From the IMG/VR virus record IMGVR_UViG_3300045988_177924: a DNA stretch of 64,000 nt, one strand, 5' to 3'. Shown piece by piece: positions 1-41,777 of the stretch (positions are counted from its first letter, which is position 1; every line of letters begins with the position of its first letter). This DNA comes from a virus. The notes under the pieces are model-generated. The model ran no database searches. It was not told the DNA's origin and worked only from the letters and a program-made list of their open reading frames with translations. The position numbers were made by a program, and so were the translations under genes.

Positions 1-163
1 TAAGGCTTATGGCCTTAATTATTTCTTTATCTTTGAGGGAATACCCCCAAAGTTTTGCGCGTTTGTCGCCTTCAAGGGAAAGGATATTTAATCCTTTCCC
101 GGCGTCCGACGCTGTTTGTGCCAGACAAATATGTCTGGCAATTTCTTTATTGAGATTAAACAT
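1..163 (-). CDS. small hypothetical protein (first 54 aa visible; continues past the window start)
   Basis: Hand translation of the minus strand (below the 60-aa cutoff of the ORF track). ATG at 163-161, AAGGAGG about 10 nt upstream (rc of 171-180). MFNLNKEIARHICLAQTASDAGKGLN... stays open to position 1. Confidence 0.4.
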   Translation of the reverse strand, partial: MFNLNKEIARHICLAQTASDAGKGLNILSLEGDKRAKLWGYSLKDKEIIKAISL

Positions 164-178
164 ATTGAATTTACCTCC

Positions 179-343
179 TTATTCTTGTGTCAAAGACACA
201 ATTTTTACAGCGCTGTGGCCGCAAGCCCGCAGTTGTTGCGCGGTTTCTTCAGCACTCTTTCGAGTGATGAAAAAGTTGTTAAAGACCTGCACGGTCTTTG
301 ACCTGTCGCCGTAAGCGACGTAGTGTATAATCCAAATCTTCAT
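179..343 (-). CDS. small hypothetical protein, 54 aa (MKIWIIHYVAYGDRSKTVQVF...)
   Basis: Hand translation. ATG at 343-341 preceded by GGAGGA (rc of 351-356). The TAA stop at 181-179 overlaps the RBS of the next ORF, giving tight operon packing with 358..657. Confidence 0.45.
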   Translation of the reverse strand: MKIWIIHYVAYGDRSKTVQVFNNFFITRKSAEETAQQLRACGHSAVKIVSLTQE

Positions 344-357
344 TAGATTGTCCTCCT

Positions 358-657
358 TTATTTGATGTATTCAGTAAGAACGACGGTGATTTCGCCGTCG
401 TGTTCGTCTTCATCTTCACAGAAGTAACTGGCAGTTACTCCTTTGATTTTATTGAGGGATTGCGCGACTAACTCAGAGTTATAGAACCAAATGTTGGCAG
501 GATTTTTGCTTTCAAGCGCCGCTTGAAATACTTCAAAATCCGTAATGTGCATTACGGGTTTCCCAAATGTTTTATATTGCATTTGGATTTTGTTATAGAG
601 GATATCAGCGATTGTGTCGTTGATAAGCACGGGGTTGTTGTTTTGATTATTTAGCAT
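358..657 (-). CDS. hypothetical protein, 99 aa
   Basis: ORF track. Phage-like K/E/N-rich composition, and co-oriented with the tightly packed downstream small ORFs. Confidence 0.6.
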   Translation of the reverse strand: MLNNQNNNPVLINDTIADILYNKIQMQYKTFGKPVMHITDFEVFQAALESKNPANIWFYNSELVAQSLNKIKGVTASYFCEDEDEHDGEITVVLTEYIK

Positions 658-679
658 AAGTTTGCCTTTTCCCTTATCC

Positions 680-1420
680 CTGGGAGCTAGGAGTTATTTT
701 TGTGCTTTCAGTTCATCTTTCGATGATGCAGAGCCACGACGAGCACGTAAGCACTTGGCTCCATTACTTCTATCCCTTAGACAGTCCTCTCATCCTTGCT
801 CTTTCTGGTGAGCCCCCTGTCATTTCCGCACCAGGTTTTGCACCCTGGCACGTTTCGGGATATCGGCAATCAGGCTTGCCGCGATTTAGGTTTTGTGCCC
901 TCTTTGTAAGTGGGACACACGCAGTTGTCTCTGCGCCTGGGGTTGGTTTAACTCCCAGATATACCAATATCAAGTCGTTGCTTGACTCGGAGTGTGCTTA
1001 ACGTAGACTCCTCTACAGGTTAGTTTGTTATTATGTGCAGTCCAACACACCTGAATGTCGTGTTGGGCTTCCAACTTGGTGTGAAAACACACCAACGCTA
1101 ACAAGTACGGCTTTCCCTTTAGCTCCATACTTGTTACGGGAACTGATGAATTTTTCGTTGGCTAGACTACTTACCTCGTTTAAGGTCCCTTCATCTGGGT
1201 TGCTACACTTATTGACGCCAGTGGCAGGCGTATGTTGTTCCCCCGAAAGGAAACATGGGAGTTCCTTGTGGATGGTAAGATTTCATCCCTCTCAAGGGCC
1301 AATCGAGAAGGCCACAAGGAACCATTTATTCCATTCCTGAGAATGGAGTGGGGTGATTAACCCCAACGTGTCAAGTTGTACCGCGAGCGTACTGACTTGA
1401 CACGGAAATTATTTTTTTCG
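680..1420. ncRNA. candidate large (~740 nt) structured non-coding RNA; class and strand unresolved
   Basis: No credible ORF. GC is about 50-55% (66/120 counted for 781-900) against about 35-40% in the flanks.
Dense perfect helices: 1076-1095 ttggtgtg/cacaccaa; 1100-1135 aacaagta/tacttgtt; 1261-1322 gttccttgtgg/ccacaaggaac; 1349-1365 tggggt/acccca; 1367-1404 cgtgtcaagt/acttgacacg; 731-761 gagcca/tggctc; 1042-1067 ccaacac/gtgttgg.
Plus-strand GNRA loops (cc-GAAA-gg near 1243; c-GCGA-g near 1385) and a T7 run after the 1367-1404 hairpin slightly favour the + strand. Confidence 0.6.
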
Positions 1421-1505
1421 ATTGTTGACGGCAGAGCGTCATATTTCCAATCAAAGCTCCTTTTCATCACAGTCTTCACCGTATAAAAAGGCAAGCTAAA
1501 AGTGA

Positions 1506-1534
1506 AATTTACACTTTTTGGAAAGTATTTTCAA
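1506..1534 (-). promoter_or_regulatory. putative sigma-70-type promoter (TTGAAA-17-TAAATT) reading leftward into the structured region and small ORFs
   Basis: rc of 1529-1534 = TTGAAA, 17-nt spacer, rc of 1506-1511 = TAAATT. It lies just downstream of the tandem minus-strand terminators. Confidence 0.4.
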
Positions 1535-1602
1535 TCGAAAATACAATTTCAGGACAAAAATATTCATAAACCCATTTTCCCGCCCCAACCCAATTTCCCC
1601 AT

Positions 1603-1634
1603 AAAAAAAAGGCGCCGACATCCGTAGTCAGCGC
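1603..1634 (-). terminator. intrinsic terminator (second of a tandem pair)
   Basis: On the minus strand, stem gcgctgac/gtcggcgc (one G-U pair) is followed by T8 (A-run 1603-1610 on +). Confidence 0.65.
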
Positions 1635-1654
1635 TCATCTCACCTCACACACAT

Positions 1655-1684
1655 AAAAAAAAGAGGAGCCAGGCACTCCTCTTC
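1655..1684 (-). terminator. intrinsic terminator after the 1689..1994 gene
   Basis: On the minus strand, stem agaggag/ctcctct (1662-1668 / 1676-1682) is followed by T7-8 (A-run 1655-1661 on +). Confidence 0.75.
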
Positions 1685-1688
1685 TTAA

Positions 1689-1994
1689 TCAAAACCAGAA
1701 AAAGTCATTCAAGACATCGAACATCGACGGCATCGAACTCTTCCCATTATAACTTATATGGAAAGAGCCGTAGTCCTTGACGAACTCTTTCAGCAACTTT
1801 TGTGCTTCGGCCTCAGCCTCTCGCGCCTTTTTAAAGGCGTCGACGACAGCCTTCGACCTCGTCTCGCGTTCGTTTTTAAGAGCCAGCTGTTTCTCTTCTT
1901 CGGCTTTCTTTTTTGCGACAATAGCCTCTTCGGCTTTTTCGCACTCTTCTTTTGTTTCATAGACCTTGTCGGTCATCTCACTGTAATACTTCAT
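1689..1994 (-). CDS. hypothetical coiled-coil protein, 101 aa
   Basis: ORF track. Charged K/E-rich helical sequence, with a terminator immediately downstream. Confidence 0.65.
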   Translation of the reverse strand: MKYYSEMTDKVYETKEECEKAEEAIVAKKKAEEEKQLALKNERETRSKAVVDAFKKAREAEAEAQKLLKEFVKDYGSFHISYNGKSSMPSMFDVLNDFFWF

Positions 1995-2064
1995 ATTGTA
2001 CTCCTTTTGAGCGTTCCTTATCTTCGCTCTAATTTATATTTCCCATCGTTCTCTGCTGACGGGA

Positions 2065-2496
2065 TTATTCACCCAAACCTGCCTGGTCGGTATCGGATTT
2101 TTCTTTTTCAGCCTGCATCATATGCCGAAACTCAGCATCCGTGCGTGAGGCATACTCCCTCACTTTCTGACGTCGACAGCGCTCGTAGACATCAGCGACA
2201 TCCTTCGCCTGTTGTTTGGTATAAAACCACCCTTTGATCAATCCTGTAGTCGTTGACGTTATTGGTCTGAGGACGTACTCGGGGTAAACACCATTATGAT
2301 CATCGAAGTCGTAAACCAGCGGAATATATCGGACAACTTTAGTGTCTTTATCTTTCACCTTTTTATACTTTATTGGGAATGGAAACTCGAGGGTACCATA
2401 ACTTGCCCAACAGGCCACGAGGTAAATCTTTGGCAGCTTAGCGAGCTTGTCTTTGGTTTTTTGATTGTAGGGCAGATGTTTTCTTACTATACACAT
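2065..2496 (-). CDS. hypothetical protein, 143 aa
   Basis: ORF track. Co-oriented and downstream of iscB; the + strand ORFs overlapping it look like antisense artefacts. Confidence 0.6.
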   Translation of the reverse strand: MCIVRKHLPYNQKTKDKLAKLPKIYLVACWASYGTLEFPFPIKYKKVKDKDTKVVRYIPLVYDFDDHNGVYPEYVLRPITSTTTGLIKGWFYTKQQAKDVADVYERCRRQKVREYASRTDAEFRHMMQAEKEKSDTDQAGLGE

Positions 2497-2573
2497 GGGG
2501 TTGCTCCTTATTTATATTTGTATTTTTTAAGCGAGAAAACCCGTTGGTCTTTAGCCAATGGGATGAATCGCTA

Positions 2574-3836
2574 TTAATCTTGACTGTTAATGATATTTTG
2601 ACTTATATATAAGCAACTTCTTCTCGCTGAGATTCTGTTACAGTTTGATAATTTTGGTGTCTTATAGCCTCTCGGCATATAACTAAAATCTATCTGATTA
2701 TTAAATATGTCCATAAGTATAGCAAATCCAGAACTCATCTTTCCTTTGATGAAATACTCTTTTCCAAAGTATTTGACCTTATCAAATTTTCTAAATCCTT
2801 GAATCTTACCTACAGGGATTTTTTGTTCTCCACGAACGCCCCTAGTTAATTGATAATTTCCTTTGGATACTCTTCGCTTTTGATAGATAGTGTCATTGAG
2901 CGTGAACTCTTTACCACCGGAAGAGATGACACAAGCATCTATGAAATGGTCTTTTGGTAGATGGAGACTTTCACGATTCGTCTTAGTAACAAATCCAAAA
3001 GTCTCAATAGCGTCAGGATAGACCTTAAGCAACCGACTTCTGATGATACTCATGTGAGTTGCATACTTTAAATTCATCTTTTTAGGTTTTTTGTTTAGTG
3101 CAATTTTCCCACTATGGACTCCGGTGTGGCAATCTTCACATAAGGTTATGAGATTGCTCTCATCATCTGTTCCACTTTGACTTTTAAAGACGATGTGATG
3201 AACCTCTAATCTGGTATGTTTCTTACCGCAAATCTGGCAGGTATAACCATCACGATTAAGTATGGCTTCTCGTCTACTGGCCCATTCATAGTTAAAACCC
3301 TTTTGATACCCCCAGTGTTTGACCTTCTCCAAAATCAAACTTGGATTTTTCATCAGATGTGTATCAAACTGACTGACTTCAAGTACAATCTTTGAAATTG
3401 GGAGTATCTTTTTGCAGAACTCGATTTCATCAATGTGTGCTTGTACCTTGTGCTTGACGGAAGGTGGAAGCCTGTTTAATTTGGTAGAGTTATTACGGTT
3501 GAGGAATCTTGACTCACGATAACGAGTCTTTCTGTTGCGTCTATTCCTACGAGCCTGTCTCCTACTATCCATCTTCGACTTGATATCGTCTCGAAGTTTT
3601 ACATTTGACTGATACAAAACTTTGTTATTGCCAACACAAGCAGTACCAATATATTTTGAGCCTGTATCTTGTCCTAAGACAACGTCTTGTGTATACTCAG
3701 TGGAGTCATAAGTAAGTTGAATTGTAAATGGACATCTCTTTTTGACTTTAGCTTTGCCATCTTTGAGAAGCAATCTTGCGACCACATTCTCGCATGGCAT
3801 TAGCGGTTTCCCACTTTTTGAAATTACATAAACCAT
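2574..3836 (-). CDS. iscB: IscB, OMEGA-family RNA-guided RuvC/HNH nuclease (420 aa)
   Basis: All IscB modules are recognisable in order:
- PLMP domain: MVYVISKSGKPLMP...PFTIQLTY
- RuvC-I: VLGQDTGSKYIG
- Arg-rich bridge helix: RRQARRNRRNRKTRYRESRF
- RuvC-II: IVLEVSQFD
- HNH: CQICGKK..EVHHIV..NLITLCEDCH
- RuvC-III: KDHFIDACVIS
Catalytic residues appear intact. Confidence 0.9.
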   Translation of the reverse strand: MVYVISKSGKPLMPCENVVARLLLKDGKAKVKKRCPFTIQLTYDSTEYTQDVVLGQDTGSKYIGTACVGNNKVLYQSNVKLRDDIKSKMDSRRQARRNRRNRKTRYRESRFLNRNNSTKLNRLPPSVKHKVQAHIDEIEFCKKILPISKIVLEVSQFDTHLMKNPSLILEKVKHWGYQKGFNYEWASRREAILNRDGYTCQICGKKHTRLEVHHIVFKSQSGTDDESNLITLCEDCHTGVHSGKIALNKKPKKMNLKYATHMSIIRSRLLKVYPDAIETFGFVTKTNRESLHLPKDHFIDACVISSGGKEFTLNDTIYQKRRVSKGNYQLTRGVRGEQKIPVGKIQGFRKFDKVKYFGKEYFIKGKMSSGFAILMDIFNNQIDFSYMPRGYKTPKLSNCNRISARRSCLYISQNIINSQD

Positions 3837-4162
3837 AAATAAGTCTCCTTAAAATTCTCACTCTTAATGAGTGGTAACGCCTATCTTAACTCTGTTACCA
3901 AGTTAAGAATTGGTCTTCCTTTCGTCAATGTTAATTAGGCTTTTGCGACATACACACAGGGCTTTTCTTACTCCAACCCAACTTAATGTATATCGACAGA
4001 GCGACGGTCTAAGGCGACAACCGAAGGTGTCATGACCTAACTAACGTAGCTCTCATTTCTGAGGCTGAGACTTGTGAACTATTTAATGGAAGCCTACGAG
4101 TTTTTAGCTCATAGGTGGCTCACTAGGATTATTACATCACTTTACTCCTTTATATCTTATAT
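3837..4162 (-). ncRNA. putative omega RNA (HEARO-type guide RNA) of IscB
   Basis: About 325-nt ORF-free leader directly 5' of iscB, the canonical omega-RNA position.
Predicted helices on the minus strand: cctatgag/ctcgtagg, ggtaac/gttacc, cactc/gagtg, and a UUCG-loop hairpin.
A consensus promoter places the TSS near 4162. The exact 5' guide/scaffold boundary is not determinable by eye. Confidence 0.7.
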
Positions 4163-4168
4163 ATTAAT

Positions 4169-4209
4169 ATTATACACTATTTGATTATAAAAGTCAACTG
4201 TAGATGACA
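4169..4209 (-). promoter_or_regulatory. promoter for omega RNA-iscB: TGTCAT-N6-TTGACT-N17-TATAAT
   Basis: rc of 4192-4197 = TTGACT, 17-nt spacer, rc of 4169-4174 = TATAAT. The upstream TGTCAT (rc of 4204-4209) is shared with four other promoters in the window. Confidence 0.75.
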
Positions 4210-4286
4210 TAATTCTTTAAGATTCTGTGAGTATGTGTGGTAGTTTTTCTTTGGGAAAAATATTTTTTATTTTTTTTTGTATTTTC

Positions 4287-4327
4287 TGTCATTGGTAGTT
4301 GACAAATGGTATTTTTCTGTGTATAAT
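4287..4327 (+). promoter_or_regulatory. consensus promoter TGTCAT-N6-TTGACA-N17-TATAAT firing rightward into the AT tract
   Basis: TTGACA at 4299-4304, 17-nt spacer, TATAAT at 4322-4327. The transcript would begin with GGGGTGGGTGGTCGGG. Confidence 0.75.
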
Positions 4328-4357
4328 AGGGGTGGGTGGTCGGGAGAATGAGATCAC

Positions 4358-4558
4358 TATTTTTTATTATATTATATTTTAATATATATTTAACATATTA
4401 TATGTTATAATGATAGAATATATGTTATATGATCATATATTATATATATTTAATTATATTTTAATATATTATTACTTTTTTAATATATAATAATATTAAT
4501 TATAATTAATATTATTTATATTAATATTTATAATTATTATATATTTATATATAAATAA
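4358..4558. other. about 200-bp tract of 96% A+T (candidate DNA-unwinding element)
   Basis: I counted only 8 G/C in 201 nt, and 4441-4558 holds a single C. No ORF and no repeat-spacer periodicity. Confidence 0.8.
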
Positions 4559-4594
4559 GCAAGATCTTCTTATCTATACCCGCCCACCACCCAA

Positions 4595-4635
4595 ATTATA
4601 ACAACTTTGAAAAGAAAAGTCAACCTACAATGACA
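4595..4635 (-). promoter_or_regulatory. consensus promoter TGTCAT-N6-TTGACT-N17-TATAAT firing leftward into the AT tract
   Basis: rc of 4618-4623 = TTGACT, 17-nt spacer, rc of 4595-4600 = TATAAT. The transcript would begin with GGGTGGTGGGCGGG. It mirrors the 4287-4327 promoter. Confidence 0.75.
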
Positions 4636-4669
4636 CAAAAATAAAAAAAATTTTAAAACTTTACAAAAA

Positions 4670-4710
4670 TGTCATCATATGTTGATATTAAATATGATAT
4701 GTGTTATAAT
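4670..4710 (+). promoter_or_regulatory. promoter for the rightward gene block: TGTCAT-N6-TTGATA-N17-TATAAT
   Basis: TTGATA at 4682-4687, 17-nt spacer, TATAAT at 4705-4710. The first gene starts at 4785. Confidence 0.7.
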
Positions 4711-4724
4711 ATAAATATAATAAG

Positions 4725-4748
4725 AAGAAAGAGAATATCCTCTTTCTT
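4725..4748 (+). promoter_or_regulatory. 9-bp perfect hairpin in the 5' leader of the 4785 gene
   Basis: aagaaagag (4725-4733) pairs with ctctttctt (4740-4748), with a 6-nt loop. Function unknown (RNA stability, attenuation or a protein site). Confidence 0.35.
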
Positions 4749-4784
4749 TAGGAATCTATATCACTTCTAAGGAACTACATTATT

Positions 4785-5354
4785 ATGAGCAAACACTTAC
4801 ACCTAATTGTAGAAGACAATGTAATTTTTAATTGTGCGGAGACAATAACCAAAAAACTTAATGAAAAATACAACACTAATTATTCTGTAATCGATTTTTA
4901 CGAAAACAAATTCCAAACGGTCTGTGGTCAAGATCATGATTTCGAAATCATTGATTGTATCAAAAGTCTGAATGTACCTGACTTGCGGATTCGAGAAGGC
5001 GCGGAAGATTTTCTTGATACCATCACAGAACTTGCGGAGAACTGTAAGCTCACTATCGAGATTGAAAGTTATGCTGAAGCTTATAGAACGGCAACAATGG
5101 AAGATGTAGAAAAAATTCGTCTTTTTGGAGACTCGGTTATATATATAGGCAGCGATTACCGTATGTGCGCTAATTATTTAGCTGATATGGTCGTGTTATT
5201 TACTGGCGATGTTGAACATCAGCGTAACCGTGTTGAAGGTAATGAGGAAGATTTTTATATCATACATAACTTTAACGACTTAGAAGCGTTGGTGAAGTTT
5301 TATGCCGATTACCCTGAATTTGTGGGGAACCCTTCGTCGATTATTGAGGAGTAA
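4785..5354 (+). CDS. hypothetical protein, 189 aa
   Basis: ORF track. First gene after the 4670-4710 promoter. Confidence 0.65.
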   Translation: MSKHLHLIVEDNVIFNCAETITKKLNEKYNTNYSVIDFYENKFQTVCGQDHDFEIIDCIKSLNVPDLRIREGAEDFLDTITELAENCKLTIEIESYAEAYRTATMEDVEKIRLFGDSVIYIGSDYRMCANYLADMVVLFTGDVEHQRNRVEGNEEDFYIIHNFNDLEALVKFYADYPEFVGNPSSIIEE

Positions 5355-5355
5355 A

Positions 5356-5904
5356 ATGAAAACATTATTTTGTGTACTTGGCAGAAGTGGAACCGGAAAA
5401 GATACAGTCGTTGATCGTGTGTGCCAGCTGACAGGAATGAAGAAAGTGTGTTCTTATACCACGCGCCCCAAGAGAATTAACGAAGGTGACACCCACATTT
5501 TTATTCGACCTGAGGATGTGGATAAATATAAAGATGATATTATTGCGCAGACTGTAATTGGAGATGTGGAATATTTTGCTACAGTTACACAAGTGTTAAA
5601 TAGTGATTTTTATATAATCGATCCTAAAGGGCTTGGAGATTTGTGGAAGTATTGGAATTTCGAAAAACATCCATTAAAAATTGTGGCTGTTTTGATTTCT
5701 GTACCTACGGATGTACAACGTGGATTCTTGATGAAACGGGGCGATGATGTTGAAATTGCCCAGAAGAGAATGGCTGCGGAAGACGCGCAGTTCTGTGAGT
5801 TCGAGAAGGAATATAAAAATAAATACGTTTTGACAAATTTAGATTTGACACAAACGGTGAATGATTTGCTAGATATTATTAAACGCGAAAAAGAGGAAGA
5901 TTAA
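5356..5904 (+). CDS. guanylate kinase-like / nucleoside monophosphate kinase
   Basis: P-loop GRSGTGKDT and the guanylate-kinase signature TTRPKRINEGDTHIF. I placed the start at ATG 5356, after GAGGAG, rather than at the track start 5302, which overlaps the previous gene. Confidence 0.7.
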   Translation: MKTLFCVLGRSGTGKDTVVDRVCQLTGMKKVCSYTTRPKRINEGDTHIFIRPEDVDKYKDDIIAQTVIGDVEYFATVTQVLNSDFYIIDPKGLGDLWKYWNFEKHPLKIVAVLISVPTDVQRGFLMKRGDDVEIAQKRMAAEDAQFCEFEKEYKNKYVLTNLDLTQTVNDLLDIIKREKEED

Positions 5905-5906
5905 GA

Positions 5907-7541
5907 GTGCCTAATTTACAAAACCTATATCAAGTTTTTAAACTTAAATCTAGTTTTATTGTAGAGAACAACTTAAATATAGTTAATTATTCAAAATCTA
6001 AGGCAGCTCGCGATGGAGCGCTGGTATCAATTGGTGATAATCTGGTTTTTCAACAAATCAGAAAATATTATAATGATACCAGAAGTCATCGAGAGATTTT
6101 TAACGATGTCCAACAATTTCGTCGCGCTATAAGAGCCGCGAAGAGAGAGGGACGAACTAAGGAAGCTGGTATTCTTAATCGGTTTTTGACAGATGCGTTG
6201 TTTGTTAAAGATATTATTAACGTTGAAGTCGTGACCAAGAAAGAATATAAAGAATTGGCCAAGAATGGTTTTGACGTTAACGGTATTCATTATGTGAGAT
6301 TTTGTTGTGGTTCGGGACAAATGAGGCGCAACACTATTACCTTTATTAACGAAGCTCTTTATGACACCTTGTACAAAAACCTGATGTGCGGGTTGGACAC
6401 CAAGATTTCAGAAATGAATTTGGCGAAATATCATGCGTATTTTGCGTTGGCGTTTTCAAGTGTTATGTGGGTGCGAACTCCGAGGGTATGCGTAGTTAAG
6501 GATTTCTTTAATGTGGTGAAGGATCAATCGGTTGATTGGATTTGCCCCAATCCCGAGACTGGGAAAAAACAGATTAAAGAAAGAATAATGGATATCGAGT
6601 TAAACTGCGCTGATGGACAGGGGTTGATAGATCCTAAGTTTGCGGCGCTGTGGGCAGAAGATATGAATTTATCATATACGCCGTCGTCGTTCGTTGTCCG
6701 TAGCGTTTTTGTGAAGGGGTGCTTGGTTCCATTTGATTTTCGAGAATTTGGAGCTGTACACGGTATTGACTCAATTCGTGACCGGTGGGGAATCTCGCAT
6801 AGGTTAGAGGATATTGATGTTATATTGAGTGAATCTCAATTCAAGATGTATAAATATTATGTATCTTGGTATGAATATCAAAAGTATGTAGATGCGGCTG
6901 GTATTCAGTGGGGAGTTGCGAGATATAATAAAAAGTACGATGACGAATATGTGCTGGCTAATTATCAATATCTGCAAGTGTTGGATATCAATAAGGATGA
7001 TATTCTGGAATTGATTCAACCGACGATTGATTGGATTAAAAAGATTTGTTCAGGTGACCAATTGTATACAATGCTGTATATGTTGGGTTGCAAGGGCGAA
7101 CAGGTCAGTTTTAAAGAGCTGTACAATGGAGCGCAAAGCACGGCGTTGAGGGCTATTATTAAAAACCCGATAATGTTGGAAGACGCTCATGTACAGAAGA
7201 AAATATATCGCAATATTGCTGAGACGATAAACAAGGCGAAGATTGGTAAGATATGGGTGAGAGGAAATTATAGTTTTATGATTTCCGATCCCGTGGCACA
7301 GTGCCAATCGGCGCTTGGGTTGGAACCGGTGGGGTTAATTGGGCCTGACCAAGTGTATTCAAATTTCTGGAGGCAGCGAAGTGTGGGTTGTGTTGACCTG
7401 TGCCGCAGCCCGATGATTGACTCGCACGAACACAACCCTTGTAAAGTAGTATCGTCCGAAGATATGGATTATTGGTATCAATATATTAAGAGTGGAATCA
7501 TTTATAGTATATATGATACTTCAACATTACGACACTCCGAT
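5907..7541 (+). CDS. YonO / RdRP-family single-subunit two-barrel RNA polymerase, exon 1
   Basis: Family-type motifs CADGQGLID, VVRSVFVKGCLV (R..KG) and CRSPMIDSH. The ORF runs into an in-frame stop 4 codons after the proposed 5' splice site. Exon 1 ends ...RHSD with a U at 7541. Confidence 0.7.
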
Positions 7542-8587
7542 AGTGACTTAACATAATGGGTCCGTCGGATGGTAACATTCGATTGCTACTCAGTGAACCT
7601 GGCAATCCAGGGTGTGGGATAAAATCCTGCTAACAGTAAAAATCGTAAGTTTTGTTGGTCGGCCTGGAGAGAAATGCCGACAGAAGAAAAAGAATTCTAT
7701 GTCTATGAATGGATAAACAAAGACACGGGAGAGATTTTCTACGTAGGGAAAGGTAGTGGTTATCGTTGGAAACGTAAAACCGCCAGCTCTCGAAACAGAT
7801 ATTTCAATCGTTATGTCCAAAAATATCCAAATTGTGAACCTCGAAAAGTTTATGAAAATTTAACTGAAGAAGAGGCTTACAACAAAGAGCGAGAATTAAT
7901 AGCCGAATATAAAGCACAAGGCGTTCAGCTGGTTAACTTCGACGAAGGAGGACGACGAGGTGGACGCTCACCTGGAAAGCTAAATGGTATGTATGGGAAA
8001 ACACATACACCAGAAGCTCGAAAGAAAATAAGCGAAGCCAATTCCGATGGCCACAATGCGGGAATCAACAATACTCAATATGGAATTAGTCCAAGAGAGC
8101 GTATGAGTCCTGCGATATACGAGCAGTGGCGTACGGCACACAAGAAAGTAGTTGGTGCAGCAAATCCAAATTGCCATCATACAATTTTGTTTAATCTTGA
8201 ACATGAGATTGTGAAAGAGTTTGAATATACGATTGAATGTGCGCATTTTTTGGAAGAGCAAGAGCATTTAACTAATGGAATTGAGAATATTCGCTCGCAA
8301 ATCAAATATTACAGCAATACAGGACACGTTATGTTCAATAAGTATTATGTAAAAGTGATTCGGCCAACAAAACAAGACAATACTGTGCCAAGCCTCGTGA
8401 AAGAGGAAGGTTAAACGACTACCGAAAGCATATCAAGCGAGAAAAACGTTTGAAAAGAAGCAAGTAGGGTAGAGAACGGTGCAAATCCGGTTCTCGAAGT
8501 GCTGAGGGAACTATGAACGGTAAAAGAACATAGCTCTAAGAGATAGTCTACTCCCCTAATAAATATCGGGAAACCGAGGGTATAAAG
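7542..8587 (+). mobile_element. group I intron (1046 nt) carrying a GIY-YIG homing endonuclease ORF
   Basis: The 5' exon ends in U (7541) and the intron ends in G (8587). P1 pairs exon tccgaU (7536-7541) with the internal guide Gtcgga (7564-7569), with the U-G wobble at the splice site. Splicing restores one frame and creates the motif DVDGD. ORF-free structured arms lie at 7542-7673 and 8415-8587. Confidence 0.8.
7674..8414 (+). CDS. GIY-YIG homing endonuclease (I-TevI-like) with NUMOD3-type motif
   Basis: GIY-YIG region FYVYEW..GEIFYVGKGSGYRWKRK, the NUMOD3-like NGMYGKTHTPEARKKISEAN, and its own RBS GGAGAG. It lies wholly inside the intron. Confidence 0.85.
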   Translation: MPTEEKEFYVYEWINKDTGEIFYVGKGSGYRWKRKTASSRNRYFNRYVQKYPNCEPRKVYENLTEEEAYNKERELIAEYKAQGVQLVNFDEGGRRGGRSPGKLNGMYGKTHTPEARKKISEANSDGHNAGINNTQYGISPRERMSPAIYEQWRTAHKKVVGAANPNCHHTILFNLEHEIVKEFEYTIECAHFLEEQEHLTNGIENIRSQIKYYSNTGHVMFNKYYVKVIRPTKQDNTVPSLVKEEG

Positions 8588-9820
8588 GTTGACGGAGATG
8601 TAGTAATGTCCACGGATAATAAAATCTTTATCAAGGGTGCGCAAAAATGGCACAATGTCATCACATATGAGAAAGGTGCGGTGCCGGTTCAGAAGATTTG
8701 TTTAAAGAATTCAATCGCGACCGATATTCGCGGCTTGGGAACTGGGGTTGGAGGTTTTTCTAACTGCGCAACAATAATGCACGCAATGAAGGGAATTTTC
8801 CAAAAAGACACCCAAAAAGAACAAAGAGACGAACTCACTTTGCGTATTAAATTACTTCGAGAAATTGTTGGTCAAGAAATTGATAGAATTAAAGGAACAG
8901 CCGCGCCGGAGCTGCCAAAAGAGTGGAAAAAATTCATCCGAATTAATGATGATGACACTGATGCGGTTAAGGCTGATAAATATAAAAGAAATTCGATGGT
9001 TATTTCTAAAAAACCCTATTTCTTTAGATATTTATATCCAGAGCTAAACCAACAGTTCAAGCAATACGAAAACAGTTACAATATGGCGTCCAAAAACATG
9101 TTTGGTATTAAATTTAAAAAGCTTTTAACCAAACCTAATAAGTCAGAAGACGAGATGAATTTGGTACGCCGTTATCAAAAGTATTCGCCGCTAATCACCG
9201 CACCGTGCATAATGAATATATTGTGTAAGGAATTTGAAAATGTCGATTTTGATATTAATTTCAATAAAAACGCGGTAAGTATGTTGCCTACCTTTGAGGA
9301 TTGTTTTGAATTTGATCAAGAACGGTTTGCTATTGTTAAAGATTTGTATCGCAAATATACAGCGCGTAAACAAGTAAAAACCTTGGAGAGTATTGTTGAT
9401 AATATTGATTTACCGAATCGTGACGAATATGATGAGATTAGATTCGGGGCAATGACATTTATCAGAACGGAAATTCAAGAGGCGATTGAGTCTGCGTCGT
9501 TCAGTGGCAAAGAATTGCTTTACTACTGCCATTGTTTATCAAAAGAATACAAACAGTTTAATTGGGATTTTGCTTGGGACATTTTAGACGAAAGCGTGTT
9601 GGATTTAATCCCTCGTGGAATTGTTCAGATTCCCGTAAAAAATGAGACTGGATTTGAATACCTTGGTAATCGATACACTTTACAAGTAATTCACGAAGAT
9701 CGCGTCAGCGAGTTGTGTGATGATGACGATTGGAATCAAACGGCGTGGGAAGAAATTTTGGGGCAAGATTTAGATTTTGACTTCGATGCTGATAACTTAT
9801 TTGGAGGCGATGACGTATGA
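8588..9820 (+). CDS. YonO / RdRP-family RNA polymerase, exon 2
   Basis: The reading frame is open from 8540 and reads ...VDGDVVMSTDNK. Joined to exon 1 it gives HS-DVDGD-VV, the DxDGD metal-binding motif, 45 aa after the RSP motif. The spliced product is about 955 aa. Confidence 0.7.
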   Translation, partial: VDGDVVMSTDNKIFIKGAQKWHNVITYEKGAVPVQKICLKNSIATDIRGLGTGVGGFSNCATIMHAMKGIFQKDTQKEQRDELTLRIKLLREIVGQEIDRIKGTAAPELPKEWKKFIRINDDDTDAVKADKYKRNSMVISKKPYFFRYLYPELNQQFKQYENSYNMASKNMFGIKFKKLLTKPNKSEDEMNLVRRYQKYSPLITAPCIMNILCKEFENVDFDINFNKNAVSMLPTFEDCFEFDQERFAIVKDLYRKYTARKQVKTLESIVDNIDLPNRDEYDEIRFGAMTFIRTEIQEAIESASFSGKELLYYCHCLSKEYKQFNWDFAWDILDESVLDLIPRGIVQIPVKNETGFEYLGNRYTLQVIHEDRVSELCDDDDWNQTAWEEILGQDLDFDFDADNLFGGDDV

Positions 9821-11255: not shown

Positions 11256-11296
11256 TGTCACTAAAATTTGACAAAAAATAGAGATTGTGATAGTAT
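11256..11296 (+). promoter_or_regulatory. promoter TGTCAC-N6-TTGACA-N17-TAGTAT
   Basis: TTGACA at 11268-11273, 17-nt spacer, TAGTAT at 11291-11296. The upstream TGTCAY element has the same N6 spacing as the four promoters at 4169-4710. Confidence 0.65.
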
Positions 11297-35748: not shown

Positions 35749-37854
35749 ATGCCTATTTATATTTATAAAGGGAATAGTCAAATTAGCACAAATGCTGTAA
35801 GAAATGATAAAGTAGTTAAAGCAATTTACGCCAAAGAACAAGGACAAGAAGCTGTGTGTGTATGGGGTGGTGGCGTAAATCTTTTGCCTTTTGCGTACAC
35901 TAAAGATGCTACTTCGGTAACGATTACTGGATTAAGGACCGGTCTTACCTGGGAGCACTTAACCATTCCTGAAAGAGTTGAAAATTTACCAGTTACTCAA
36001 ATAACATCAAACGCATTTAAGGATAGCACAACACTTCAATCAATTGAATTGCCCAATTCCTTAATTAGTATTGGTAATGATGCTTTCAATGGCTGTACCG
36101 GGCTTACGAGCATCACAATCCCCGACAGTGTCACAAGCATAGGCTCTGATGCCTTCCGTGGTTGCACAGGTCTTACTAATATAATAATCCCTAATGGTGT
36201 GACGTATATCAGCGCTGCCTTTAGAGATTGTGCATCGCTTGAAAGCATAACGATTCCGTTTGTTGGCGCCTATGACCCAGAGGGGTTTGGATACGATGAG
36301 GTGTTTGGCTATATATTTGGATATACTACGACAAGCAGTGAGTCCTCGGTACCAGGAGCGACTTATCAATATTATTATGGTGGTTCTTCCAGGTATTTTT
36401 ATTACTACATACCATCAAGCATAAAGTCCGTAATTATAAGAGGGGGAAACATTCCATCCTGTGCTTTCAAAAATTGCACCGAACTCACAAGCATAACAAT
36501 CCCTGACAGCGTCACAAATATTGGCGATGATGCCTTCTCGGGTTGTACTAGTTTGACAAGCATAACGATTCCCGACAGCGTGACGAGCATCAGCTCTAAT
36601 GCCTTCGCGGGTTGCACGGGGCTTACGAGCATTACAATTCCTGATAGCGTAACGAGCATAGACCGCAATGCCTTCGATAATACAGCATGGTACAACAATC
36701 AGCCTGACGGTCTTGTATATGTGGGTAAATTCGCTTATAAGTACAAAGGCGAGATGTCAAGTGATACCTCGATTGTTTTAAAAGAAGGAACATTAGGTAT
36801 TAGTAATTATGCCCTTAGTGATTACAGAGGTCTTACGAGCGTTACAATCCCTGACAGCGTGACGAACATTGGTGATTCTGCCTTTTGGGCTTGCTCTAAT
36901 CTTACGAGCGTAACAATAGGCAACAGTGTGACAAGCATCGGCGATGATGCCTTCTCCGGTTGCACCAGGCTTACGAGCATAACAATCCCCGACAGCGTGA
37001 TGAGTATCGGCGATGATGCCTTCTATGGCACTACTTGGTACAACAATCAACCTGATGGACTTGTGTACGCAGGTAAAGTCGCTTATAAGTATAAAGGAAC
37101 TATGCCAAGCAACACCTCGATTGTATTAAACGAAGGAACATTGGGCATTGCCGATTTGGCCTTCTATGGTTGCAGCAGCTTGACGAGCATAACTATCCCA
37201 AACAGCGTGACGAGCATCGGCGAGCGTGCCTTCGATGGTTGCACCGGACTTACGAGTGTGACAATCGGAAATAGCGTGACGAGCATCGACGATGAGGCTT
37301 TCCGTAATTGCAGTGGTTTAACAAGCATCACAATCCCCGACAGCGTGACGAGCATCGGCGTTCAGGCCTTCTCTGATTGCACAGGGCTTACAAGTGTGAC
37401 AATAGGCAACGGTGTGAAGAGTATAGACTATTGGGCCTTTCTTCGTTGCACGGGGCTTACGAGTATCACGATCCCTGATAGTGTGACGAGTCTTGGCAAG
37501 CAGGTTTTCCAGGATTGTGCTGGGCTTACGAGCGTGACAATTGGAAACGGCGTTACGCGCATCAGAAGGTATGCCTTCGATGGTTGTACAAGTTTGACCA
37601 ATATAACGATTCCTGACGGTGTGACGAGCATCGACGTTGCCGCCTTCTGTGATTGTACTAGTTTGACACACATAACGATTCCAAACAGCGTGACGCGCAT
37701 TGGCGGAATAGTCTGCCGTAACTGCACTGGTCTTACAAACATTATATTTAAGGGTACAAAAGCACAATGGAATGCAATAACAAAGAGCACTTCGTGGAAC
37801 TCCAACACAGGTAATTATACGATCCATTGTACAGATGGAGATATACCGAAATAA
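35749..37854 (+). CDS. BspA-type leucine-rich-repeat (LRR_5) surface-binding protein, 701 aa
   Basis: About 20 tandem copies of L(T/E)SITIP(D/N)SVTSIG..AF.GC.. Confidence 0.85.
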   Translation: MPIYIYKGNSQISTNAVRNDKVVKAIYAKEQGQEAVCVWGGGVNLLPFAYTKDATSVTITGLRTGLTWEHLTIPERVENLPVTQITSNAFKDSTTLQSIELPNSLISIGNDAFNGCTGLTSITIPDSVTSIGSDAFRGCTGLTNIIIPNGVTYISAAFRDCASLESITIPFVGAYDPEGFGYDEVFGYIFGYTTTSSESSVPGATYQYYYGGSSRYFYYYIPSSIKSVIIRGGNIPSCAFKNCTELTSITIPDSVTNIGDDAFSGCTSLTSITIPDSVTSISSNAFAGCTGLTSITIPDSVTSIDRNAFDNTAWYNNQPDGLVYVGKFAYKYKGEMSSDTSIVLKEGTLGISNYALSDYRGLTSVTIPDSVTNIGDSAFWACSNLTSVTIGNSVTSIGDDAFSGCTRLTSITIPDSVMSIGDDAFYGTTWYNNQPDGLVYAGKVAYKYKGTMPSNTSIVLNEGTLGIADLAFYGCSSLTSITIPNSVTSIGERAFDGCTGLTSVTIGNSVTSIDDEAFRNCSGLTSITIPDSVTSIGVQAFSDCTGLTSVTIGNGVKSIDYWAFLRCTGLTSITIPDSVTSLGKQVFQDCAGLTSVTIGNGVTRIRRYAFDGCTSLTNITIPDGVTSIDVAAFCDCTSLTHITIPNSVTRIGGIVCRNCTGLTNIIFKGTKAQWNAITKSTSWNSNTGNYTIHCTDGDIPK

Positions 37855-37880
37855 TGATTAACATCAATAAATACACATAA

Positions 37881-38227
37881 ACTTAAATAATAGACGGGGG
37901 TGTGGCAACCCCGTCGAGCTTTAAGTGAAAACGATCTTAAAGCTTTTATTTTCGGCTTAATTTGAAAACGATAAGGAGGCCCGAATGGCTGCTGAAAAAA
38001 AAATAACTTCTAGAATACAACAAAAGCACGACACTGCTGCCAACTGGGCAAACGCAACGACTTTTATTCCCAAAAAGGGAGAAATTGTGATATATGATGC
38101 GGAATATAACACCAGCGGAGTCCAGACACAAGCAGTGCGTTTTAAAATTGGCGACGGTTCGAGAACGATCAACAATCTCCCGTTTGCCCTAATAGATTAT
38201 GACAATAGAATTACTAGTCTCGAAAGC
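37881..38227 (+). repeat. direct repeat copy B (347 bp)
   Basis: See copy A. Confidence 0.8.
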
Positions 38228-39367
38228 ACGGTCAATGGACTAGGCACTGCTGCTCAAAAAGACGTAGGGTTCTTTGCTACCGCAGCACAAGGCACAAAAG
38301 CAGACAACGCTGTACCCAACACAAGAAAAGTTAATAATAAAGCTCTAAGTACAGACATTAAACTAGAACCAAGCGATGTGGGTGTCACAGAATCCGCGTT
38401 CCCTGGTTTGAATAAAACTGGTACTATTACTGAAATTAAGATGAACGGTGCAAGCAAGGGTACTAGCGGTGTTGTTGATTTGGGAACTGTTTTAACATCC
38501 TCTGACAATCTTGCAAAACTTGATACTGAAAACACCTTTACCGCTAAACAGACAATAAATTCTGGTTATGGCACTGTCAGCTTAAAAACACAGGGATATG
38601 TGGAAATAAACGCATCCTGGTTAAGCGGAAACTTGGGGGGTTTGTTAGGCATAAAACGTGACGATACAAGTGGTAGAATATATGCCGTCGCTACGAAGAA
38701 CTTAGGGCTTGTTAGCGCTATCAGGATTAATAATTCTACCAAACAACCCGATGGCGACTGCGTTGTCGACCTTGGAACTGTTTTAACTACTCATCAAACT
38801 ATTAAAACACTAAAAACAAATAACGATACAGCACAAGAAGTAAGTGCAAGTGAAGCTATTTCAGGGTCAGGAACAATAAATCTACACAAAGTTGCAAAAA
38901 CTGGCAATTATAATGATTTATCTAATAGGCCAACGATTCCAACAGATACTGGTGCCACGAGTGTAGAAGTGACTGGAACAGGTAATGCTGTTACTGCGGC
39001 GTCTTACAACGCTACAAACAGAAAATTAACCTTAACAAAAGGTTCAACATTTCTCACAAGTCATCAAGATATAAGTGGAAAGGCAAACCTTGCTGGAAAT
39101 AACACGTTCACAGGAGGGCAAACAATAACAGGGCAAACTTCTGGCGGATATTCGGTAGACGCAAGCGGATATGTAAGAGGCAGTTGGTTGCAATCAAGTG
39201 TTAAGTCAAATTATGGTAGGGGAACTGGAATGGTTTGTGTATTTGACAGCTCAGGCTGGATATATTACAGGACACCGAGCGAGATTTTGACCGAAGCTGG
39301 CGGTGCCAAGGCAAGCGATATACCCACCTTCGAACTTTCGGGAGACACGTTAATTATCAACTTCTAA
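37985..39367 (+). CDS. tail fibre protein (paralog family 4 of 4), 460 aa
   Basis: MAAEKKITSRIQQKHDTAANW...RFKIGDGSRT anchor. The AFPGLNKTGT.T..KMNG module is shared with 33234. Confidence 0.7.
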   Translation: MAAEKKITSRIQQKHDTAANWANATTFIPKKGEIVIYDAEYNTSGVQTQAVRFKIGDGSRTINNLPFALIDYDNRITSLESTVNGLGTAAQKDVGFFATAAQGTKADNAVPNTRKVNNKALSTDIKLEPSDVGVTESAFPGLNKTGTITEIKMNGASKGTSGVVDLGTVLTSSDNLAKLDTENTFTAKQTINSGYGTVSLKTQGYVEINASWLSGNLGGLLGIKRDDTSGRIYAVATKNLGLVSAIRINNSTKQPDGDCVVDLGTVLTTHQTIKTLKTNNDTAQEVSASEAISGSGTINLHKVAKTGNYNDLSNRPTIPTDTGATSVEVTGTGNAVTAASYNATNRKLTLTKGSTFLTSHQDISGKANLAGNNTFTGGQTITGQTSGGYSVDASGYVRGSWLQSSVKSNYGRGTGMVCVFDSSGWIYYRTPSEILTEAGGAKASDIPTFELSGDTLIINF

Positions 39368-39415
39368 GGTAACATAGTACACAAGGTAATACACAAGGAA
39401 AACAAGGAGAAACGA

Positions 39416-41064: not shown

Positions 41065-41066
41065 AT

Positions 41067-41723: not shown

Positions 41724-41777
41724 GGGCGGATTGGAACCACATTGCCCCGCGCTCATTCATAAAGAGAGGAGGCTATT

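What the first reader, a model, noticed from the sequence alone, without database searches (positions are those of the whole stretch)
2574..4209. Complete, TnpA-less IscB + omega-RNA (OMEGA) module wired to the phage's own early-promoter class
The 420-aa ORF has every IscB hallmark (PLMP, split RuvC, Arg-rich bridge helix, HNH) with catalytic residues apparently intact.

The ~325 nt upstream is ORF-free and helix-rich, which is where omega RNAs (HEARO) lie.

I see no TnpA/Y1 transposase next to it. A perfect TTGACT-17-TATAAT promoter sits at the 5' end and carries the same TGTCAT-N6 upstream element as the neighbouring phage promoters. That argues the nuclease is expressed as part of the phage early programme rather than being a passive IS passenger.

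With a TSS near 4162, the guide would be the AT-rich sequence about 4145-4162 that abuts the candidate origin.

Possible roles are RNA-guided homing into IscB-less relatives, or exclusion of competing phages.
Basis: partly seen in the sequence, partly recalled or inferred. Interest (0 to 1): 0.8.

Follow-up and report, generated by a model that had tools for sequence, protein, structure and literature searches.

The report
Mobile IscB guide-RNA nuclease in phage
A large gut phage carries an intact, mobile RNA-guided nuclease (IscB with its guide RNA) inserted just downstream of one of the phage's own early promoters. It is an ordinary member of a known transposon family, and its guide exactly matches the unoccupied site in sister phages, so it gives a natural setting to test phage-to-phage RNA-guided homing.

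Summary
ORF 2574-3836(-) is a bona fide IscB (NCBIfam guided_IscB 336.7 bits against a cut-off of 175), with all RuvC, HNH and zinc residues intact. A full-length HEARO/omega RNA lies at 3910-4123(-) (94.6 bits, gathering score 83), and 48 of 68 predicted pairs covary. A TGTCAT-N6-TTGACT-17-TATAAT promoter sits at 4209-4169(-). It belongs to a class of five such promoters in the window. No Y1 TnpA is present in the window.

Comparison with six IscB-less sister phages, and with about 90% identical copies at six other sites, defines a discrete ~1.6-kb element (4123 to 2522/2518). It is inserted about 39 nt downstream of a pre-existing phage promoter.

It is 4124-4139 (TGATGTAATAATCCTA), not 4145-4162. 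It matches the unoccupied allele of two sister phages perfectly, but that allele is followed by ATTAA rather than the inferred TAM ATAAA.

"TnpA-less" and "driven by an outside promoter" are the published norm for IscB, so neither argues for domestication.

Verdict: a functional, non-autonomous IS200/IS605-type IscB element that is mobile among related gut phages. It is a new member of a known kind and of moderate interest.

The parts
4169..4209 (-). Phage early-type promoter P1: TGTCAT (4209-4204), N6, -35 TTGACT (4197-4192), 17-nt spacer, -10 TATAAT (4174-4169). It lies outside the mobile element. Predicted TSS is about 4162.
   Evidence: The same promoter is present in the IscB-less relatives L002, L003 and L005, so it pre-dates the insertion. 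The TSS is inferred from the -10 position only.
4140..4162 (-). Predicted 5' leader upstream of the guide. It is phage sequence shared with the relatives and contains an AAAGGAG-N7-ATG-TAA start-stop that runs into the guide.
   Evidence: Whether it is trimmed from the mature omega RNA is unknown.
4124..4139 (-). Guide segment of the omega RNA: TGATGTAATAATCCTA, the 16 nt immediately 5' of the scaffold, encoded by phage DNA outside the element.
   Evidence: Homology to the IscB-less relatives runs exactly to 4124, and homology to other element copies starts at 4123. It is identical in L002 and L003 and has 1 mismatch in L005. It is unique in the window. The 16-nt length is taken from my own knowledge of characterised IscBs and was not measured here.
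3837..4123 (-). Omega-RNA scaffold, which is the transposon RE. The Rfam HEARO match covers 3910-4123, and a 3' extension with a conserved hairpin runs to the iscB RBS.
   Evidence: 94.6 bits, gathering score 83; 68 predicted pairs, 48 of them with compensatory changes across 11 copies, including the hairpin at about 3900-3870.
2574..3836 (-). iscB gene, 420 aa: PLMP, split RuvC (D57, E153, H297, D300), Arg-rich bridge helix, HNH (H213/H214, N228), two CxxC pairs, and a divergent C-terminal ~115 aa.
   Evidence: dN/dS is 0.08-0.15 among the intact copies at different sites.
2518..2573 (-). 3' terminus of the element (transposon LE), with an imperfect subterminal hairpin CCCATTGG-CTAAAGA-CCAACGGG (2562-2540) and the conserved CTCGCTTAA motif (2535-2527). 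The last base of the element is 2522 or 2518.
   Evidence: The terminus is conserved in L008, L009, L010, L029 and L031. The boundary was calibrated on filled/empty allele pairs for L009 and L029 and by donor-joint alignment. The 4-nt ambiguity remains unresolved.
2513..2521 (-). TAM position flanking the element. It reads ACAAA (2521-2517) if the element ends at 2522, or ATATA (2517-2513) if it ends at 2518. The inferred family TAM is ATAAA (TTTAT on the other strand).
   Evidence: ATAAA follows the target in the five unoccupied L009 alleles. It also follows the terminus of L008, L010 and L029. It is the reverse complement of the TTTAT TAM reported for ISGst2 (PMC10055086).
2065..2496 (-). 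First phage gene downstream of the element (143 aa, function unknown). It is probably co-transcribed with the omega RNA and iscB from P1. The anchor gene used to find sister phages.
   Evidence: No terminator-like site lies on the minus strand between 4160 and 1690; the first ones are at 1686-1612.

Best explanation
This is a functional, non-autonomous IS200/IS605-family (ISC-type) element about 1.6 kb long, spanning window 4123 to 2522/2518 on the minus strand. It consists of an omega-RNA scaffold, an intact iscB gene and a short hairpin-bearing terminus.

It sits in the 5' leader of the leftward early operon of a ~140-kb gut phage that encodes a YonO-type RNA polymerase. The insertion point is about 39 nt downstream of the predicted start of a strong promoter that belongs to the phage.

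Proposed mechanism:
1. Transcription from that promoter yields an RNA whose 5' part carries 16 nt of phage leader (TGATGTAATAATCCTA, 4124-4139) fused to the scaffold. The same transcript continues into iscB and the downstream phage genes.
2. IscB loaded with this RNA recognises the same 16 bp where it is followed by a TAM (inferred to be ATAAA-like) instead of by the element. That is the unoccupied allele.
3. When an IscB-less sister phage shares the cell, or after excision, that allele would be cut and repaired from the occupied copy. This copies or retains the element (homing). Where repair fails, the competitor is simply damaged.
4. Movement to new sites needs a Y1 TnpA supplied in trans, probably from the host bacterium.

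Shown here: the identity of the parts, the element boundaries, mobility between sites, the guide match to empty alleles, purifying selection, and that the promoter is phage-derived.

Inferred: the TSS, the guide length, the TAM, actual cleavage and homing, and the source of TnpA.
For: Protein identity and intact active sites.

Omega RNA above Rfam's curated threshold, with strong covariation.

Boundaries from two independent comparisons that agree:
- Homology to the IscB-less sister phages L002, L003 and L005 stops at 4124 and resumes at about 2512.
- Homology to other element copies (L008, L009, L010) spans 4123/4124 down to 2512-2523.

Mobility:
- Copies 88-92% identical in protein (L008, L009=L030, L010, L029, L031) lie in six other contexts with unrelated 5' flanks. 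L051 is a further, frameshifted copy.
- Contigs 172055 and 163652 lack the element at the window's site but carry it elsewhere.

Filled and empty alleles:
- L009's 22-mer guide region occurs unoccupied in five contigs, followed directly by ATAAAG, and occupied in one.
- The window's guide is identical in L002 and L003.

Selection: dN/dS is 0.08-0.15 among the intact copies.

The promoter is present in the IscB-less relatives. Four of the seven close copies lie just downstream of the same GTCAY-N6-TTGAC promoter class.

No close relative was found in 185,579 bacterial and archaeal genomes; the best hit was 46% identical.

Literature: external transcription and rarity of TnpA are general for IscB, and IscB cleaves donor joints (PMC10055086). 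Homing into co-infecting phages is discussed as theoretical (PMC13565253).
Against: - There is no expression or cleavage data.
- The relatives' unoccupied allele is followed by ATTAA(A), one mismatch or a 1-nt indel from the inferred TAM. GstIscB is reported to be highly sensitive to TAM mutations, so L002, L003 and L005 may be resistant alleles rather than current targets.
- The window's 3' flank is not a perfect continuation of the relatives' sequence. The donor joint aligns with small gaps. The relatives also carry an extra 0.27-1.5 kb cassette before the 143-aa gene.
- The element's 3' boundary is ambiguous by 4 nt.
- For L029 the 'empty' alleles carry 12 unexplained extra nucleotides.
- The predicted transcript has about 23 nt 5' of the 16-nt guide, and its fate is unknown.
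- Only about 71 kb of the ~140-kb genome could be checked for TnpA.
Confidence: 0.8

Rival explanations
1. The IscB module has been domesticated by the phage as part of its early programme, as a weapon that excludes competing phages (interference competition). On this view it is no longer a mobile element.
For: It is the first gene behind a strong phage early-type promoter. It is under purifying selection. This IscB lineage was found in phage and metagenome contigs but not in cellular genomes. Sixteen contigs carry the identical protein. Intron endonucleases are known to mediate competition between phages (cited in PMC13565253).
Against: The guide is simply the DNA flanking the insertion, as in any IS copy, and differs at every site. 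The distribution among sister phages is patchy, with many different insertion sites. One copy is decaying (L051). An external promoter and absence of TnpA are generic to IscB. A fixed exclusion weapon would be expected at a conserved locus, with a guide against a conserved essential target of competitors.
Confidence: 0.12
2. It is a passive, currently inert IS passenger. The element landed once by TnpA-mediated transposition and persists only because it is harmless. The guide match to relatives is an automatic by-product with no consequence, for example because the remaining empty alleles lack a working TAM or the omega RNA is not matured.
For: The guide match follows by construction for any IscB insertion. 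The relatives' TAM position reads ATTAA, not ATAAA. The window's own flanking TAM position is also off consensus (ACAAA or ATATA). There is a long 5' extension before the guide.
Against: dN/dS of about 0.1 with all catalytic residues kept across copies that have diverged to dS 0.3-0.5. Widespread compensatory changes in the omega RNA. Susceptible-looking empty alleles with a perfect target plus ATAAA exist for the sister copy L009. A decaying copy (L051) shows what relaxed selection looks like.
Confidence: 0.08

Closest known systems
OgeuIscB with its omega RNA (human-gut metagenome IscB; PDB 7utn, 7xht, 8csz)
   Same: Same domain order and catalytic residues. phmmer E~1e-43 over residues 1-305. 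Same HEARO-type omega RNA upstream on the same strand.
   Different: About 75 aa shorter (420 against 496 aa), and the C-terminal ~115 aa (the presumed TAM-interacting part) does not align. The TAM is probably different: ATAAA-like here, against NWRRNA for OgeuIscB (the latter from my own knowledge).
ISGst5 / GstIscB of Geobacillus stearothermophilus (Meers et al., PMC10055086)
   Same: Non-autonomous IS605-type element. The scaffold derives from the RE and the guide from the outside flank. Transcription comes from outside the element. The TAM is A/T-rich and lies at the LE flank (TTCAT or TTTAT in that study; TTTAT inferred here). The nuclease targets the unoccupied or donor-joint allele.
   Different: It resides in a phage genome rather than a bacterial chromosome. 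No TnpA partner has been identified. The relevant 'homologous copy' would be a co-infecting phage rather than a sister chromosome.
Free-standing phage homing endonucleases (T4 Seg/Mob) and intron endonucleases used in phage competition
   Same: Patchy presence among sister phages. It lies between conserved genes. The nuclease's target is in the allele that lacks it. DNA identity to L002 drops from 97% to 84% across the element, like the nuclease-marked recombination boundaries described for phages.
   Different: Target recognition is by RNA guide plus TAM, not by protein. Self-protection comes from the element separating the target from the TAM. It can retarget by transposing.
IscB homologues in deposited phage genomes (e.g. 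Clostridium phage c-st, Clostridioides phage pCD1602_4, Staphylococcus and Ralstonia phages)
   Same: tblastn finds IscB-like ORFs in 123 phage records, usually annotated 'HNH endonuclease'. Phage carriage of IscB is therefore not new.
   Different: All are below 41% identical to this protein. I did not examine their omega RNAs, guides or empty alleles.

Membership tests
IscB (OMEGA RNA-guided nuclease) | N-terminal PLMP/RRXRR domain, RuvC split by an Arg-rich bridge helix and an HNH insertion | tested here: met
   Pfam RRXRR 9.5e-59 and HNH 2.7e-13. NCBIfam guided_IscB equivalog 336.7 bits against a cut-off of 175. PDB IscB chains at E~1e-43.
IscB (OMEGA RNA-guided nuclease) | Catalytic residues of RuvC I/II/III and HNH present | tested here: met
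   D57, E153, H297/D300, H213/H214 and N228 align with OgeuIscB D61, E193, H340/D343 and H247. The OgeuIscB residue numbers are from my own knowledge. These residues are invariant in 12 of 13 copies; the exception is the frameshifted L051.
IscB (OMEGA RNA-guided nuclease) | HEARO-type omega RNA directly upstream on the same strand | tested here: met
   RF02033 over the full model, 94.6 bits against a gathering score of 83. 48 of 68 pairs show compensatory changes.
IscB (OMEGA RNA-guided nuclease) | Guide lies 5' of the scaffold and is encoded by flanking DNA outside the element | tested here: met
   The flank/element break is at 4124|4123 in both kinds of comparison. The 5' flanks of the copies are unrelated to each other.
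IscB (OMEGA RNA-guided nuclease) | RNA-guided, TAM-dependent double-strand DNA cleavage | not testable with these tools
   This needs biochemistry or an interference assay.
IS200/IS605 (ISC) non-autonomous transposon | Discrete conserved ends shared by copies at different genomic sites | tested here: met
   The same 5' end (GTGA[G/A]CCACC) and 3' end (GGCTAAAGACC...CTCGCTTAA) occur at seven sites.
IS200/IS605 (ISC) non-autonomous transposon | Subterminal imperfect hairpins, no terminal inverted repeats, no target-site duplication | tested here: inconclusive
   An imperfect hairpin at 2562-2540 is visible in the sequence and varies with partial compensation among copies. No duplication is seen at the L009 junction. 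I ran no formal test.
IS200/IS605 (ISC) non-autonomous transposon | Insertion next to a conserved short motif (TAM) at the LE flank | tested here: inconclusive
   ATAAA (TTTAT) follows the target in five empty L009 alleles, and follows the terminus of L008, L010 and L029. The window (ACAAA or ATATA), the filled L009 allele and L031 deviate. The boundary is ambiguous by 4 nt.
IS200/IS605 (ISC) non-autonomous transposon | Y1 (HUH) TnpA transposase, required only for autonomous members | tested here: not met
   None of the 117 window ORFs hits PF01797, and none is among the genes called in L001. Absence is expected for ~98.5% of iscB loci, so this does not exclude non-autonomous membership. About half of the phage genome was not examined.
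Phage homing element (functional analogy only) | Occupied and unoccupied alleles co-exist in close relatives, and the nuclease's target is intact in the unoccupied allele | tested here: inconclusive
   The protospacer is 16/16 in L002 and L003 and 15/16 in L005, but the TAM position reads ATTAA. For the sister copy L009, the target plus ATAAA is intact in five contigs.

The most novel reading that the evidence does not exclude
In this group of gut phages, IscB elements act as RNA-guided gene drives that spread from phage to phage during co-infection. They preferentially settle, or are preferentially retained, within the first ~20-45 nt of transcripts from one specific class of strong early promoters (GTCAY-N6-TTGAC-N17-TATAAT). 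That position supplies both the guide-containing omega RNA and early expression. The surviving unoccupied alleles (ATTAA instead of ATAAA in L002, L003 and L005; the 12-nt spacer in the L029-type empties) would then be drive-resistant alleles, which would make this a natural record of a drive-versus-resistance arms race between viruses.
Probability: 0.35. Interest if true: 0.65.

Novelty: new member of a known kind. Interest (0 to 1): 0.42.

Why it matters
IscB biology has been worked out in bacterial chromosomes and plasmids. Its spread between co-infecting phages is so far only a theoretical category (PMC13565253).

This locus and its sister phages provide matched occupied and unoccupied alleles with exact guide matches, a defined external promoter, several independent insertion sites and one decaying copy. 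Those are the materials needed to test RNA-guided homing, or exclusion, between viruses.

It also yields a compact (420 aa), apparently active IscB with a probable ATAAA-type TAM.

In itself, though, it is an expected member of a well-described family.

Tried and rejected
- Megablast of 2000-5000 against deposited phages found nothing. The relatives had to be found through proteins and IMG/VR.
- The genome-contig scan gave no close IscB relative; the best was 46% identical in a Desulfovibrionaceae MAG. It therefore gave no clue to the host or to a TnpA donor.
- The exact 17-mer guide search in IMG/VR returned only the two sister phages and one chance hit inside a coding region of an unrelated phage (L025). 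No wider target population was found.
- Guide searches for L008, L010 and L051 found no unoccupied alleles.
- The flanks of L009 and L010 have no counterpart inside the window.
- A permissive Rfam search of 1-9000 found no group I intron or ribozyme besides HEARO.
- A simple HUH/Y-motif scan found no candidate TnpA, and Pfam confirmed this.
- I considered defining the TAM from the window's own flank and rejected that. The 3' boundary is ambiguous by 4 nt, and the two boundary choices give ACAAA or ATATA.
- I considered that the 12 extra nucleotides in the L029 'empty' alleles are an excision scar. I could neither support nor exclude this.
- I could not fetch the remaining ~68 kb of the phage contig, because look-ups are restricted to proteins encoded in the window.
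Full report
**What is there**

The minus strand of 2574-3836 encodes a 420-aa protein. It is an IscB by every test available:
- Pfam RRXRR (9.5e-59) plus HNH (2.7e-13).
- The NCBIfam equivalog model 'RNA-guided endonuclease IscB' at 336.7 bits against a curated cut-off of 175.
- The solved OgeuIscB structures at E~1e-43.

The residues that align with the OgeuIscB active sites are all present: D57, E153, H213/H214, N228, H297 and D300, plus two CxxC pairs. They are invariant in 12 of 13 related copies.

Directly upstream on the same strand, Rfam's HEARO model (the IscB omega RNA) matches end to end at 3910-4123. The score is 94.6 bits against a gathering score of 83. An alignment of 11 copies gives a consensus structure of 68 pairs, and 48 of them keep pairing through changes on both sides. 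This includes a hairpin between the end of the Rfam model and the iscB ribosome-binding site. The omega RNA scaffold is therefore 3837-4123.

**The genome**

The window is part of a ~140-kb contig from a metagenome; ENA ERZ1745419 NODE_45 is identical over the locus. The gene to the right (5907-7556) is a YonO-type single-subunit RNA polymerase. Its relatives are in SPbeta-like Bacillus phages, Enterocloster phages and Clostridium phage c-st. A sister contig is labelled human gut. A Firmicutes host is my inference from these relatives, and it makes sigma-A/sigma-70-type promoters a reasonable reading.

**The promoter claim**

TTGACT-17-TATAAT is literally at 4197-4169(-), with TGTCAT six bases upstream of the -35 hexamer. 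Three more promoters with the same upstream element lie within 540 nt, at 4288(+), 4634(-) and 4671(+). A fifth lies at 11257(+).

Two points change its meaning:
- The promoter and the leader are present, nearly base for base, in sister phages that have no IscB (L002, L003, L005). The promoter belongs to the phage and pre-dates the insertion.
- Meers et al. (PMC10055086) show that this is how all IscB elements work. The scaffold is the transposon's right end and the guide lies outside the element. [quoted passage not shown] Only ~1.5% of iscB genes have a tnpA nearby.

Being TnpA-less and promoter-dependent is therefore the family norm, not evidence of domestication. I found no Y1 transposase among the 117 ORFs of 85-700 aa in the window, nor among the genes called in the extra 7 kb of L001. 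About half of the phage genome could not be examined.

**Element boundaries and the guide**

Six IMG/VR phage contigs carry homologues of the downstream 143-aa gene (2065-2496). None has IscB or HEARO at that place.
- DNA homology between the window and the three closest (L002, L003, L005) runs to window position 4124 and resumes at about 2512.
- Independently, homology between the window and IscB copies elsewhere (L008, L009, L010) spans 4123/4124 down to 2512-2523.

The two comparisons meet at the same base. The element starts at 4123 (GTGAGCCACC...), which is also position 1 of the HEARO match.

The 16-nt length is from my own knowledge of characterised IscBs. With a start near 4162 (inferred only from the -10 position), the primary transcript carries about 23 extra nucleotides 5' of the guide. 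Whether these are trimmed is unknown.

No terminator-like site lies on the minus strand before 1686. The same transcript probably continues through iscB into the phage genes.

**It is mobile**

Copies with 88-92% identical proteins and the same termini lie in six other contexts, each with an unrelated 5' flank (L008, L009=L030, L010, L029, L031, L051). Two of them lie in contigs (172055 and 163652) that are unoccupied at the window's site.

Among the intact copies dS is 0.3-0.5 and dN/dS is 0.08-0.15, so the nuclease has been under purifying selection while moving. L051 is frameshifted and shows what decay looks like.

No close relative exists in one genome from each of 185,579 bacterial and archaeal species. 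The lineage looks phage-borne. The source of the TnpA needed for moves to new sites is unknown.

**Occupied and unoccupied alleles**

The window's 17-mer (guide plus one base) occurs in IMG/VR only in L002's and L003's contigs, plus one chance hit. In both contigs the site is unoccupied, and the 16-nt protospacer is identical. L005 has one mismatch.

For the sister copy L009, the guide region occurs in six contigs:
- Five are unoccupied: ...GGCTTTTGAAG|ATAAAGTTAG...
- One is occupied.

This is the clearest calibration of the junction and of the motif next to the target.

If the element ends 9-10 nt after CTC[AG]C, the 3' flanks read:
- ATAAAG (the five L009 empty alleles)
- ATAAAC (L029)
- ATAAAA (L008)
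- ATAAAG (L010)
- ATAGAC (L009 filled)
- ACAAAT (window)
- TAATAG (L031)

More distant copies show ATGAA or ATAAA at the same position. ATAAA is the reverse complement of TTTAT, and ATGAA is the reverse complement of TTCAT. Those are the two TAMs reported for the Geobacillus elements. I therefore infer an ATAAA-like TAM.

A boundary 4 nt further out fits the donor-joint alignments slightly better, so the last base of the element is either 2522 or 2518.

**What this means for homing**

With the element removed, the window's flanks align with the relatives' unoccupied sequence: CCTA|AT(A)TAAATA..GCAACCCC. That is consistent with a simple insertion. The relatives additionally carry a 0.27-1.5 kb cassette before the 143-aa gene.

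The relatives' TAM position reads ATTAA. This is one mismatch from ATAAA, and GstIscB is reported to be highly sensitive to TAM changes. The protospacer match is shown. Cleavage of these particular alleles is uncertain, and they may be escape alleles. The L009 site shows that fully susceptible-looking empty alleles exist for this element family.

DNA identity between the window and L002 falls from 97.2% on the promoter side to 84.0% on the other side, exactly across the element. Phage homing nucleases are described as leaving this kind of mosaic boundary (cited in PMC13565253).

**Verdict**

The finding is real and the module is complete. It is best explained as a functional non-autonomous IS200/IS605-type IscB element that circulates among related gut phages and is read from a phage early promoter.

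The mechanism is the known one for the family: guide-directed cleavage of the allele that lacks the element, followed by recombinational copying. It is transferred here to co-infecting phages, a situation that a 2026 review still lists as theoretical (PMC13565253). Phage carriage of IscB-like genes is itself not new, since 123 deposited phage records have a homologue.

I rate it a new member of a known kind, of moderate interest. Its main value is as a ready-made natural system for testing RNA-guided homing or exclusion between viruses.

**Open points**

- The exact 3' boundary and the TAM.
- The 12 extra in-frame nucleotides in the L029-type 'empty' alleles.
- Whether the tendency of copies to sit just downstream of the GTCAY-N6-TTGAC promoter class (4 of 7) reflects selection for expression or target choice.
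- The source of the transposase.

Noticed in passing
window 5907-9820: The YonO-type RNA polymerase appears to be split into a 549-aa part (5907-7556; PF05183; phrog_8308 positions 67-550 of 847) and a 404-aa part (8606-9820; phrog_35857). A 246-aa homing-endonuclease-like ORF lies between them (7674-8414; phrog_314; a NUMOD3 hit in the window probably belongs to it). No group I intron was detected by Rfam at E<=0.1. This may be a second selfish nuclease, an intron or intein-like interruption, or a naturally two-part polymerase.
   Followed up: partly
window 4169-4710: Four promoters of one class surround an ~85% A+T core (about 4330-4590) that is full of palindromes. P1(-) and P4(+) face outward. 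P2(+) and P3(-) face inward into the core and lie in a 40-nt inverted repeat (4264-4303 / 4619-4658). The GC skew changes sign here. This is compatible with a transcription-activated replication origin or a regulatory switch region.
   Followed up: partly
window 4131-4150 (minus strand); also L002, L003, L005: The early leader contains AAAGGAG, 7 nt, then ATG-TAA. This is a ribosome-binding site followed by a 'start-stop' mini-ORF. It is conserved in the IscB-less relatives and overlaps the guide/protospacer.
   Followed up: no
L029 versus L081-L085: At the L029 insertion site, the alleles without the element carry 12 extra in-frame nucleotides ([G/A]TGAACGA[T/G]TAG) between the guide match and ATAAAC, within codons 2-5 of a radical-SAM-like gene. 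The first six of them equal the first six bases of the element in other copies. This could be an excision scar, a target deletion on insertion, or a spacer that separates target from TAM.
   Followed up: partly
L009/L076 versus L073-L078: The L009 insertion site lies within the first ~15 codons of a phage gene. The occupied allele has also lost ~28 nt that include that gene's RBS and start codon, and its TAM position is altered.
   Followed up: no
L003 1787-1853 and 4816-4895; L005 9956-10035; L007 9272-9351; L008 6196-6256: The sister phages carry pistol and twister-sister ribozymes in the leftward operon. L008 has a RAGATH-18 RNA 1.3 kb downstream of its iscB; a 2026 review links RAGATH-18 to IS607-type TnpB. 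None of these is detectable in the window.
   Followed up: no
L051 3001-4262: This copy of the element has a frameshifted iscB (11 stops in the original frame, RuvC-III residues lost), so it is a decaying copy.
   Followed up: partly
window 2512-661 versus 6000-4124, compared with L002: DNA identity to the closest sister phage drops from 97.2% to 84.0% exactly across the IscB element, giving a mosaic or recombination boundary at the nuclease.
   Followed up: partly
window 35749-53105 and elsewhere: Other features of the window: a 3775-aa ORF (41778-53105), a BspA-type leucine-rich-repeat protein (35749-37854), two proteins with the Mtd_N tropism-determinant domain (one at 37985-39367), a tyrosine integrase and two holin-family hits. 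The integrase suggests a temperate lifestyle.
   Followed up: no
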